Shown one piece after another: positions 31,605 to 31,973 of a stretch of 64,000 bases of DNA (the stretch's first letter is position 1; the number at the start of each line of letters is the position of its first letter). Source of the stretch: Candidatus Niyogibacteria bacterium (GTDB lineage: Bacteria; Patescibacteriota; Minisyncoccia; HO2-45-28). Position numbers and translations under genes: made by a program. The notes under the pieces were generated by a model. It did no database searches and was not told the DNA's origin. It saw only the letters and a list, made by a program, of their open reading frames with translations. The stretch is from NCBI GenBank assembly GCA_016432485.1, contig CP066691.1, positions 388,709 through 452,708 on the forward strand, given 5' to 3'.

Positions 31605-31633
31605 TTGACAAAATACAGGAATAAGAATATAAT
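31605..31633 (+). promoter_or_regulatory. consensus sigma70 promoter
   Basis: TTGACA (31605-31610) - 17 nt - TATAAT (31628-31633). Confidence 0.7.
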
Positions 31634-31639
31634 AAAGAT

Positions 31640-31864
31640 TGACACTTTGTAGAAAGGAGGGGCCCCAATGCACTGGCCGTAACGAGCACTAATACTGCCA
31701 CCCTGTCAGTACGCCGCAGGGTTGGCAGGATTTTCCGAGGCGCCCCAGGGACGGCGCCGGAGGCCCGCCCCACATACCGCCAAACCAAGCCGGCCAACGG
31801 AGGCGATCATCATGCACCCTCCCTAGTAAGAATAGCCCTCTCCGCCGCAGGAGAGGGCTATTTT
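31640..31864 (+). ncRNA. candidate structured ncRNA (~225 nt; 6S-like rod? unassigned)
   Basis: Bounded by a perfect promoter and the intrinsic terminator AGCCCTCTCC-GCCGCA-GGAGAGGGCTATTTT. GC-rich with long-range complementarity (GGAGGG/CCCUCC; UGGCCG/CGGCCA). Only a 4-codon ORF (MHWP). Directly upstream of tRNA-Gln. Confidence 0.4.
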
Positions 31865-31902
31865 AATTGAAAAAGAATAATTTTAATCTATAATTTTATT
31901 AT

Positions 31903-31973
31903 TGCGGGATCGTCTAATGGTAGGACACATGCCTCTGGAGCATGGTATCTAGGTTCGAGTCCTAGTCCCGCAG
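31903..31973 (+). tRNA. tRNA-Gln (anticodon CTG)
   Basis: UGCGGGA-UC-GUCU-AAUGGUA-GGAC-A-CAUGC-CUCUGGA-GCAUG-GUAU-CUAGG-UUCGAGU-CCUAG-UCCCGCA-G. U1:A72 and G73 as in bacterial tRNA-Gln. Confidence 0.85.

What the first reader, a model, noticed from the sequence alone, without database searches (positions are those of the whole stretch)
31605..31973. Unassigned ~225-nt GC-rich structured RNA with textbook promoter and terminator, followed by tRNA-Gln
A perfect TTGACA-17-TATAAT promoter is unique in this window for quality. It is followed by a GC-rich (relative to genome) segment with extensive long-range complementarity and a canonical intrinsic terminator. Coding potential is only MHWP preceded by an AGGAGG. 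tRNA-Gln lies 40 nt downstream. Candidates are 6S RNA, an SRP-RNA variant, a tracrRNA-unrelated regulatory RNA, or a lineage-specific ncRNA. RNase P RNA is separately accounted for at 51793-52248 and no tmRNA or SRP RNA was otherwise recognised in the window.
Basis: seen in the sequence. Interest (0 to 1): 0.55.

Follow-up and report, generated by a model that had tools for sequence, protein, structure and literature searches.

The report
Small RNA with two four-codon ORFs
This is a real, conserved small structured RNA gene in a group of tiny uncultured (CPR) bacteria that fits no known RNA family and, unusually, carries two ribosome-binding sites, each followed by a conserved four-codon reading frame (Met-His-x-Pro and Met-His-Pro-Pro) that appears to be read by ribosomes.

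Summary
A 12/12 consensus promoter (31605-31633) is followed by a ~225-nt GC-rich segment (about 63-65% GC; window 45%), a strong intrinsic terminator (31829-31864), and tRNA-Gln(CTG) (31903-31974) with its own promoter. The promoter is not unique: the window has six perfect ones.

No Rfam 15 family matches, even at E<=10, so 6S, SRP RNA, tmRNA and riboswitches are rejected.

I found nine distinct homologues in Niyogibacteria-like Parcubacteria. All have the same perfect promoter, a terminator and a covarying hairpin P2, and all lie upstream of tRNA-Gln. Some close relatives lack the element.

Every member has two Shine-Dalgarno-led four-codon ORFs: ORF1 (MHWP, MHPP, MHEP or MHDT) and ORF2 (always MHPP). 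ORF2 varies only at positions 1, 6, 9, 12 and 15 (ATG/GTG, His and Pro wobbles, TAG/TAA), and every change preserves meaning (P~2e-4) while the flanks vary freely. One wobble change breaks a predicted helix but keeps proline.

Best reading: a new lineage-specific RNA family whose mini-ORFs are decoded, probably acting through ribosome engagement at a Pro-Pro-stop site. The function and output remain unknown.

The parts
31605..31633 (+). Sigma-70-type promoter, TTGACA-N17-TATAAT. The inferred transcription start is near 31640.
   Evidence: 12/12 match. The same perfect promoter is present in the eight members checked and is visible in L086.
31655..31660 (+). Shine-Dalgarno box 1 (AGGAGG), 7 nt upstream of the ORF1 start codon
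   Evidence: GGAGG or GGGAG is conserved 4-7 nt upstream of the ORF1 start codon (4-9 nt for either box), while the spacer sequence varies.
31668..31682 (+). Mini-ORF1: ATG CAC TGG CCG TAA (Met-His-Trp-Pro-stop)
   Evidence: Start, His codon, four-codon length and stop are kept in all nine members. Codons 3-4 vary: MHWP, MHPP, MHEP, MHDT.
31695..31728 (+). Hairpin P2: CUGCCACCCUG / CAGGGUUGGCAG, with a conserved loop (GU..GCGC)
   Evidence: Four pairs show compensatory double changes in A4. Hand registration on the GCC/GGC anchor shows U-A<->C-G, C-G<->U-A and A-U<->G-C.
31739..31758 (+). Short GC-rich hairpin P3 (GGCGCC-loop-GGCGCC), preceded by the conserved box AGGCGCC
   Evidence: MFE fold. 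A GC-rich hairpin occupies the equivalent position in all members, with a different sequence. RNAalifold's fourth helix in this region (columns 93-99/122-127) has two pairs with double changes, but it is not drawn identically to this hairpin.
31764..31798 (+). C-rich segment, largely single-stranded in predictions (CCCGCCCCACAUACCGCCAAACC...)
   Evidence: It is C-rich in all members, but the sequence is only loosely conserved.
31799..31803 (+). Shine-Dalgarno box 2 (GGAGG), 8 nt upstream of the ORF2 start codon
   Evidence: GGAG is invariant, with spacing of 6-9 nt.
31812..31826 (+). Mini-ORF2: ATG CAC CCT CCC TAG (Met-His-Pro-Pro-stop)
   Evidence: MHPP-stop in all nine members. Variation occurs only at positions 1 (ATG/GTG), 6, 9, 12 and 15 (TAG/TAA), and all of it preserves meaning (hypergeometric P = 2e-4). 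The flanks are 22/22 and 15/15 variable.
31829..31868 (+). Intrinsic terminator: 13-15-bp G+C-rich stem, 6-nt loop and U-tract
   Evidence: A terminator is present in all members, with paired probability 0.58-1.0.
31867..31894 (+). Separate promoter of tRNA-Gln (TTGAAA-N16-TATAAT). It is not part of the RNA but abuts its terminator.
   Evidence: 11/12 match. The TAATTGAAAAA...TATAAT box is also found upstream of tRNA-Gln in loci that lack the RNA.
31903..31974 (+). tRNA-Gln (anticodon CTG), the conserved downstream neighbour
   Evidence: tRNA-Gln follows the RNA in every member whose contig extends far enough.

Best explanation
SHOWN. This is the gene for a ~225-nt structured RNA of a previously unclassified family restricted, as far as seen, to Niyogibacteria-like Parcubacteria (CPR). 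It is transcribed from its own consensus promoter and ended by its own terminator. It consists of a GC-rich structured core (hairpin P2 with covariation, P3, a C-rich stretch) bracketed by two ribosome-binding sites. Each site is followed by a four-codon ORF: ORF1 is Met-His-x-(Pro/Thr)-stop and ORF2 is Met-His-Pro-Pro-stop. The substitution pattern indicates that at least ORF2 is under selection as a decoded reading frame.

INFERRED. The RNA works through ribosome engagement rather than through a peptide product. Both SD boxes are paired in the mature fold, so ribosomes would load mainly on the nascent transcript. They translate four codons and reach Pro-Pro-stop while still held by the SD. 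From established knowledge, that context is slow both in Pro-Pro bond formation (EF-P-dependent) and in release after a C-terminal Pro. Very short SD-led ORFs also favour peptidyl-tRNA drop-off. Ribosome dwell time on the RNA would therefore report translation capacity (Pro-tRNA, EF-P, RF1, Pth). It would either set how the core folds or how long the RNA survives, or sequester ribosomes and tRNA-Pro. The output is not known. In the window-type members ORF2's stop lies only 6-11 nt before the terminator stem, so read-through towards tRNA-Gln is one possible output.

Confidence is about 0.6 for 'new RNA family with decoded mini-ORFs' and about 0.25 for the specific sensor/sink mechanism. The figure given is a blend.
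For: Independent gene: perfect promoter plus terminator in all members.

Conserved family: nine distinct sequences, with seven of the nine sequence types recovered without using the mini-ORF pattern. These came by nhmmer, by synteny, via VTT protein homologues and via a tRNA-promoter anchor. A covariance model gives 128-196 bits for members, and the window holds a single copy.

Structure: 92.4% of cells paired versus 39-51% in slid controls, and 7 pairs with double changes.

Decoding:
- SD boxes lie 4-9 nt from the starts, with variable spacers.
- ORF length and stop are kept in both ORFs of all nine members.
- ORF2 varies only at positions 1, 6, 9, 12 and 15, giving ATG/GTG, CAC/CAT, CCT/CCG, CCC/CCT and TAG/TAA. 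All five changes preserve meaning (10 of 45 possible substitutions do; P = 2e-4), while the flanks are fully variable.
- The CCU->CCG change in L013 and L074 breaks predicted pair 13:236 of helix P1 without compensation but keeps Pro.

Background on minigenes and proline stalling: PMC8708949 (minigene drop-off depends on the last codon, SD strength and length; a ribosome bound at a mini-ORF protects mRNA), PMC5021804 (EF-P, polyproline and terminator coupling) and PMC9973355 (Pth and prolyl-tRNA turnover).
Against: - There is no expression, ribosome-profiling or probing data. Everything rests on nine sequences from three or four subtypes of one narrow clade, so independent substitution events are few.
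- Both SDs are mostly base-paired in the predicted free fold (unpaired probability 0.00-0.31). Forcing one ORF open does not reliably expose the other or affect the terminator, so a simple thermodynamic toggle is not supported.
- AUGCAU is palindromic and CCUCC is complementary to GGAGG, so part of the conservation could be RNA-level.
- The distance from ORF2 to the terminator ranges from 6 to about 95 nt among members, which argues against a conserved steric anti-termination mechanism.
- SD-like motifs precede only 8 of 44 long ORFs in the window under a naive start definition.
- The element is absent from this site in close relatives, so it is not essential there.
Confidence: 0.5

Rival explanations
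1. A purely non-coding structured sRNA. The 'SD' and 'mini-ORF' boxes are RNA-level elements: G-rich and C-rich strands that pair with each other (SD1 with ORF2's CCUCC, and AUGC with GCAU), or two copies of a protein-binding or 16S-binding motif. The RNA would act by base-pairing (C-rich, anti-SD-like stretches targeting mRNA SDs, as in RoxS/RsaE-type sRNAs) or by sequestering a protein.
For: RNAalifold places SD1 and the ORF1 AUGC in a helix with ORF2's GCAUCCUCC, about 92-100% paired. Both SDs are mostly paired in all members. The RNA has a C-rich unpaired stretch and several GGA motifs. L047 has a non-AUG look-alike of the ORF2 box (AUCUGCACCCCUCCCC) that could serve only as an anti-SD partner.
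Against: P1 shows no covariation, and its pair 13:236 is broken without compensation exactly where a synonymous Pro change occurred. SD1 does not covary with ORF2 in the CCG-CCC members. The pairing model does not explain why ORF2 varies only at wobble, start-alternative and stop-alternative positions, why ATG->GTG and TAG->TAA are the accepted changes, or why ORF1 keeps its length and stop while codons 3-4 change freely.
Confidence: 0.25
2. A cis-acting leader or attenuator of the downstream tRNA-Gln gene. Ribosome stalling on ORF2 next to the terminator would govern read-through transcription into tRNA-Gln.
For: The RNA is linked to tRNA-Gln(CTG) in every member, even where the other flank differs. 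In the window and L017, ORF2's stop is only 6-11 nt from the terminator stem. EF-P-dependent stalling can modulate intrinsic termination (PMC5021804).
Against: tRNA-Gln has its own conserved promoter (TAATTGAAAAA-N-TATAAT) between the terminator and the tRNA, and relatives with no RNA upstream keep the same promoter. The ORF2-terminator distance is about 45-95 nt in other subtypes. In L017 a ~900-nt insertion separates the RNA from the tRNA. The terminators are strong and unaffected by modelled ribosome footprints.
Confidence: 0.08
3. A selfish or accessory 'minigene' cassette, analogous to phage lambda bar minigenes. It would have been inserted beside a tRNA gene, and its translation would deplete tRNA-Pro via peptidyl-tRNA drop-off, acting as a growth brake, toxin or competition factor rather than a housekeeping regulator.
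For: The element shows presence/absence polymorphism among close relatives at the same site. Neighbouring cargo varies: a 175-aa ORF in L013 and L017, and a LAGLIDADG insertion in L017. It has a consensus promoter, strong SDs and very short ORFs ending in Pro, which are features that increase minigene drop-off (PMC8708949, PMC9973355).
Against: No integrase, flanking repeats or other mobility signature was seen. It lies 5' of the tRNA, whereas tRNA-targeting integrative elements usually lie 3'. A conserved, covarying structured core is not needed for a plain minigene. The SDs are masked in the mature fold.
Confidence: 0.1
4. A highly diverged member of a known housekeeping or regulatory RNA class (6S RNA, SRP RNA, tmRNA, a riboswitch or a T-box) that Rfam models fail to recognise in CPR bacteria.
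For: CPR RNAs are often divergent: the RNase P RNA and 23S rRNA in this window carry large insertions. The size and GC-richness are compatible with 6S or SRP RNA.
Against: No match appears at E<=10 in a 500-nt search or in three relatives. ARAGORN is negative. The fold is not rod-like with a central bubble, the 3' end is a terminator rather than a tRNA-like domain, and there is no regulated downstream CDS. The element is absent at this locus in close relatives, which is unexpected for a housekeeping RNA.
Confidence: 0.03

Closest known systems
Bacterial minigenes / regulatory mini-ORFs (phage lambda bar minigenes; two-codon minigenes in the LEE1 and axe-txe leaders; six-codon mini-ORF in LEE4)
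   Same: A strong SD, a start codon, a handful of codons and a stop. The effects come from ribosome binding or peptidyl-tRNA drop-off, not from the peptide. They depend on SD strength, ORF length and the last sense codon (PMC8708949, PMC3262186).
   Different: Known examples sit in 5' leaders or intergenic regions of mRNAs and act on a downstream cistron, or sit in a phage genome. Here two minigenes bracket a conserved structured core on a stand-alone, terminated small RNA with no downstream CDS, and the codon content (His-Pro-Pro) is conserved.
Proline-codon leader ORFs and EF-P-sensitive attenuation (Salmonella mgtP/mgtQ in the mgtCBR leader; polyproline-terminator coupling)
   Same: Short ORFs containing Pro codons whose translation speed changes RNA structure or termination. 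They are sensitive to Pro-tRNA and EF-P (PMC5299641, PMC8092293, PMC5021804).
   Different: Those ORFs are longer and control identifiable downstream genes through defined alternative stem-loops. Here no regulated gene is evident, and a modelled ribosome footprint does not switch the predicted structure.
Dual-function / ribosome-engaged sRNAs and 5' SD stabilisers (B. thuringiensis cryIIIA STAB-SD; B. subtilis hbs mRNA)
   Same: A strong SD near the 5' end of a stable transcript binds ribosomes or 30S subunits and can protect the RNA from 5' decay (PMC5737220). STAB-SD is cited from my own knowledge.
   Different: A stabiliser needs only an SD. It does not explain a second internal SD or the conserved start-His-Pro-Pro-stop frame.
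6S RNA, SRP RNA, tmRNA
   Same: Abundant, GC-rich, structured small RNAs with their own promoter and terminator, of similar size.
   Different: There is no sequence or structure match to any of them. The architecture is different, and the element is not universally present even among close relatives.

Membership tests
6S RNA (Rfam RF00013 and related) | Match to the 6S covariance models | tested here: not met
   No hit at gathering score, at E<=10 on 31500-32000, or in relatives.
6S RNA (Rfam RF00013 and related) | Extended rod with paired 5' and 3' ends and a large central bubble | tested here: not met
   The MFE and consensus folds are multi-branched (P2, P3, further hairpins), and the 3' end is a separate terminator hairpin.
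SRP RNA (small/large bacterial) | Domain IV helix 8 with GNAR tetraloop and conserved symmetric/asymmetric loops, scored by the Rfam SRP models | tested here: not met
   No SRP model hit at E<=10.
tmRNA | tRNA-like domain plus a tag reading frame | tested here: not met
   ARAGORN finds no tmRNA, and Rfam gives no hit.
Riboswitch / T-box leader | Match to a known aptamer class, and a regulated coding gene directly downstream | tested here: not met
   No Rfam hit. Downstream lies a terminator, then an independently promoted tRNA gene.
Transcription-attenuation leader peptide | Leader ORF whose translation selects between terminator and antiterminator upstream of a co-transcribed gene | tested here: inconclusive
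   Short ORFs and a terminator are present. However, the downstream tRNA-Gln has its own promoter that is also conserved in loci lacking the RNA. No antiterminator emerged, and modelled footprints do not affect terminator pairing.
Minigene (SD-led ORF of 2-6 codons) | SD at functional spacing, a start codon, no more than 6 codons, and an in-frame stop | tested here: met
   Both ORFs in all nine members have SD 4-9 nt upstream, an ATG or GTG start, four codons and a TAA/TAG stop.
Minigene (SD-led ORF of 2-6 codons) | Actual translation and/or peptidyl-tRNA drop-off | not testable with these tools
   Only indirect evidence is available: the meaning-preserving substitution pattern of ORF2, P = 2e-4.
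Independent sRNA gene | Own promoter and terminator, conserved across genomes, and no conserved long ORF on either strand | tested here: met
   Promoter and terminator in all members. Indels between members are not multiples of three. The antisense ORF calls in public records differ in length and extent between loci.

The most novel reading that the evidence does not exclude
A new class of stand-alone 'twin-minigene' riboregulator. A structured RNA would use two SD-led four-codon ORFs ending in Pro-(Pro)-stop as built-in ribosome traps to sense, or to throttle, translation capacity (EF-P / RF1 / Pth / Pro-tRNA) in genome-reduced CPR bacteria. The lone SD-MHPP-stop minigenes seen in Yonathbacteria, Saccharimonadia and other Patescibacteria would be minimal versions of the same device.
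Probability: 0.2. Interest if true: 0.8.

Novelty: new variant of a known kind. Interest (0 to 1): 0.6.

Why it matters
If the mini-ORFs are decoded, this would be a small RNA whose function depends on being translated for just four codons into a Pro-Pro-stop trap, with no protein product and no downstream gene. That arrangement links minigene and peptidyl-tRNA biology, EF-P/termination stalling and structured sRNAs. It occurs in CPR bacteria, whose regulatory RNAs are almost unexplored and which cannot yet be manipulated genetically. It is directly testable in vitro (toeprinting or PURE translation with and without EF-P and RF1).

It also matters for annotation. Public records either leave this locus blank or call spurious antisense ORFs across it.

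Tried and rejected
1. Rfam at gathering and permissive thresholds, on the window and on relatives: nothing but tRNA.
2. Protein-coding on either strand: rejected. Only short, non-conserved ORFs are present, and indels of 2, 5 and 11 nt separate the window from L017.
3. nhmmer/blastn alone missed the L013-type homologues. They were found by synteny and then by pattern.
4. The genome-wide pattern scan for SD+MHPP+TAG returned many non-CPR hits (Nitrospina x5, Bryobacterales x3, Terrabacter x2, actinobacteria). On inspection these lie antisense within conserved coding sequence or in high-GC DNA, so they are chance matches.
5. The viral-contig scan gave one hit (L085). It was not examined beyond a covariance-model search, which found no match there.
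6. Thermodynamic toggle model (a ribosome on one ORF exposes the other or melts the terminator): not supported by partition-function calculations.
7. P1 (SD1:ORF2) as a covariation-supported helix: invariant, and broken without compensation in two subtypes.
8. The lone MHPP minigenes (L047, L058, L065, L033) as homologues of the whole RNA: the covariance model matches only the SD/ORF box (E = 0.008 and 0.9), or nothing.
9. The similar promoter at 3724-3752(-) as a second copy: it drives an ordinary CDS.
10. Literature searches for this RNA, CPR sRNAs or MHPP minigenes found nothing relevant.

Full report
OBSERVATION. The sequence is as described, with two corrections.
- A 12/12 sigma-70 promoter, TTGACA-N17-TATAAT, lies at 31605-31633.
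- Downstream is a stretch with 0.61-0.65 GC, in a window that averages 0.454.
- It folds to -91.6 kcal/mol, with z = -2.95 against dinucleotide shuffles.
- It ends in a 13-15-bp G+C-rich hairpin plus U-tract at 31829-31868.
- tRNA-Gln(CTG) follows at 31903-31974, behind its own TTGAAA-N16-TATAAT promoter at 31867-31894.
- RNase P RNA is at 51789-52250 on the minus strand. No tmRNA or SRP RNA is in the window.

The first correction concerns uniqueness. The window has six perfect TTGACA-N16-18-TATAAT sites, against a chance expectation of 0.02, and one with a similar spacer drives an ordinary protein gene. The second concerns coding potential. Besides AGGAGG-N7-ATG CAC TGG CCG TAA (MHWP, 31668-31682) there is a second SD-led four-codon ORF, GGAGG-N8-ATG CAC CCT CCC TAG (MHPP, 31812-31826). 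Two such ORFs in one sequence are not beyond chance. Conservation is what makes them meaningful.

NOT A KNOWN RNA. No Rfam 15 family reaches its gathering score over this region. None appears at E<=10 when only 31500-32000 is searched, and none appears in three relatives with larger cores. ARAGORN finds no tmRNA. The predicted fold is multi-branched with a separate terminator, not a 6S-type rod. No conserved long ORF exists on either strand, and the indels between the window and its closest relative are 2, 5, 6 and 11 nt.

ORGANISM AND HOMOLOGUES. The flanking VTT/DedA protein identifies the source as a Candidatus Niyogibacteria bacterium, in the Parcubacteria (CPR). I assembled nine distinct homologues by several independent routes:
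- L017, found by nhmmer at 78% identity.
- L013, found by synteny.
- L046 and L061, found by a pattern scan of species-representative genomes.
- L074, L075, L076 and L086, found through contigs of VTT protein homologues.
- L078, found through an anchor in the tRNA-Gln promoter.

All carry a perfect TTGACA-N17-TATAAT promoter and a terminator. Wherever the contig reaches far enough, tRNA-Gln(CTG) lies downstream, even though the upstream neighbour differs (VTT, a 175-aa ORF, or another gene).

The element is absent at the same site in L072 and L073, where VTT lies directly next to tRNA-Gln. It is also absent upstream of tRNA-Gln in L079, L080/81 and L083, which keep the same tRNA promoter box. 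A covariance model of the core scores members at 128-196 bits and finds a single copy in the window.

STRUCTURE. On the core alignment, 92.4% of cells form standard pairs, versus 39-51% when partners are slid. Seven pairs show compensatory double changes, and 0-5 of 500 shuffles reach the observed values. The best-supported helix is P2 (31695-31728). Around an invariant GCC/GGC anchor, the flanking pairs switch U-A<->C-G, C-G<->U-A and A-U<->G-C between subtypes. A short GC-rich hairpin (P3, 31739-31758) is positionally conserved with a different sequence in each subtype. RNAalifold's fourth helix in the same region shows two pairs with double changes, but it is not drawn identically to P3. 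Larger subtypes add a further long hairpin and a ~100-nt 3' extension.

RNAalifold also draws a closing helix P1 between SD1/AUGC of ORF1 and GCAUCCUCC of ORF2. P1 is invariant, so covariation is uninformative for it.

THE TWO MINI-ORFS.
- Both are preceded by GGAGG-type boxes 4-9 nt upstream, with freely varying spacers.
- ORF1 keeps ATG-CAY, four codons and TAA/TAG in all nine members, while codons 3-4 vary: MHWP, MHPP, MHEP, MHDT.
- ORF2 is Met-His-Pro-Pro-stop in all nine.
- ORF2's only variable positions are 1 (ATG/GTG), 6 (CAC/CAT), 9 (CCT/CCG), 12 (CCC/CCT) and 15 (TAG/TAA). The 22 nt upstream and the 15 nt downstream vary at every ungapped position.
- Only 10 of the 45 possible single substitutions preserve 'start-His-Pro-Pro-stop'. 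All five observed substitutions do so, giving a hypergeometric P of 2e-4.
- The CCU->CCG change in L013 and L074 breaks P1 pair 13:236 with no compensation, yet it keeps proline.

This is the signature of a decoded frame, not of a helix. There are three caveats. The nine sequences represent few independent events. AUGCAU is palindromic. CCUCC is inherently complementary to GGAGG.

MECHANISM. Shown: an independent, conserved, structured RNA with two RBS-plus-four-codon frames under coding-like constraint.

Inferred: the RNA acts through ribosome engagement. A four-codon ORF leaves the ribosome still tethered to the SD when it reaches the stop. Pro-Pro is the slowest peptide bond to form and depends on EF-P, and release after a C-terminal Pro is slow; both points are established knowledge. 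SD-led minigenes promote peptidyl-tRNA drop-off in a way that depends on the last codon, the SD strength and the ORF length (PMC8708949). Pth is especially needed for prolyl-tRNA turnover (PMC9973355). Polyproline stalling can change intrinsic termination (PMC5021804).

So ribosome dwell time on this RNA would report, or consume, translation capacity. My one computational test of a specific switching model failed. Both SDs are mostly paired in the free fold (unpaired probability 0.00-0.31), and opening one ORF neither reliably exposes the other nor affects the terminator. Loading would therefore have to be co-transcriptional, and the output is unknown.

RIVALS.
- RNA-only sRNA (0.25). It fits the masked SDs and the C-rich stretch but not the wobble-only pattern.
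- tRNA-Gln attenuator (0.08). The linkage is conserved and the stop-terminator gap is 6-11 nt in the window and L017. Against it, the tRNA has its own promoter, which is conserved without the RNA, and the gap is 45-95 nt in other subtypes.
- Accessory or selfish minigene cassette (0.10). Presence/absence polymorphism and variable cargo fit, but no mobility signature was seen and the core is conserved.
- Diverged known class (0.03).

COMPARISON AND NOVELTY. The closest known things are bacterial minigenes and mini-ORFs in leaders, and proline-codon leader ORFs such as mgtP/mgtQ. This element meets the formal definition of a minigene twice. It differs in being a stand-alone terminated sRNA with a covarying structured core, no downstream cistron and conserved His-Pro-Pro content. 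No paper in the searchable library describes it. I rate it a new variant of a known kind, in a new RNA family.

SIDE OBSERVATION. The genome scan also hit lone SD-ATG-CAY-CCN-CCN-TAG minigenes in intergenic regions of other Patescibacteria: L047 (Yonathbacteria), L065, L033 (Saccharimonadia) and L058. That is more than CPR's small share of the scanned bases would predict. They share only the minigene box with this RNA. If real, the minigene is the functional unit and the structured core is a lineage-specific elaboration.

VERDICT. The main finding is the pair of conserved, apparently decoded four-codon ORFs. Interest is 0.6.

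Noticed in passing
L047:7566-7604(-); L065:2172-2197(-); L033:508-533(-); L058:500-527(-): Lone SD-ATG-CAY-CCN-CCN-TAG (MHPP) minigenes lie in intergenic regions of other Patescibacteria. In L047 (Yonathbacteria) the minigene has a promoter-like site, an anti-SD-like box (AUCUGCACCCCUCCCC) and a terminator, giving a ~110-nt transcript. In L065 it heads a ~250-nt terminated transcript between FtsX and tRNA-Gln. These share only the minigene box with the window RNA.
   Followed up: partly
L017:2780-3880(-): A LAGLIDADG-type ORF (2903-3490) sits between the RNA's terminator/tRNA promoter and tRNA-Gln (2811-2884). 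A degenerate tRNA-Gln 5' fragment (TTGCGGAGTAATGTAACGG) directly follows the promoter. This looks like a mobile insertion at the tRNA gene.
   Followed up: no
window 881-909(-), 3724-3752(-), 9379-9406(-), 29324-29351(-), 31605-31633(+), 46716-46743(-): There are six perfect TTGACA-N16-18-TATAAT promoters in 64 kb (chance expectation 0.02). This genome uses textbook sigma-70 promoters widely, so a perfect promoter alone does not mark a special gene.
   Followed up: partly
window 4786-9406(-) and 51789-52250(-): The 23S rRNA (5900-9020) spans 3.1 kb, with several large insertions relative to the bacterial model. A perfect promoter lies just upstream of it (9379-9406), and no 16S rRNA is in the window, so the rRNA genes appear unlinked. 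RNase P RNA is 462 nt, also with insertions.
   Followed up: no
L011:3923-4186(+), L013:3965-4186(+), L017:3927-4448(+); window 31579-31797(-): Public gene calls place hypothetical ORFs antisense across the GC-rich RNA in relatives, and the window has a comparable 72-aa antisense ORF. These are probably spurious, because indels between members are not multiples of three.
   Followed up: partly
L072:1-844, L073:1-89, L079, L080/L081, L083: Close and more distant relatives have tRNA-Gln with the same TAATTGAAAAA...TATAAT promoter but no RNA upstream. The RNA gene is therefore a variably present module inserted immediately 5' of the tRNA promoter.
   Followed up: partly
L022, L030, L039, L054, L059 (Nitrospina); L027, L049, L056 (Bryobacterales): The SD+MHPP+TAG pattern recurs in several species of these clades. 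It lies antisense inside conserved protein-coding sequence, so it is a by-product of a conserved peptide motif on the other strand and not a minigene.
   Followed up: partly
window 34143-35015(-): The RF2-like (prfB) ORF, 2.3 kb from the RNA, is only 290 aa as the longest ATG-started frame. I did not check whether an upstream frameshifted segment exists.
   Followed up: no
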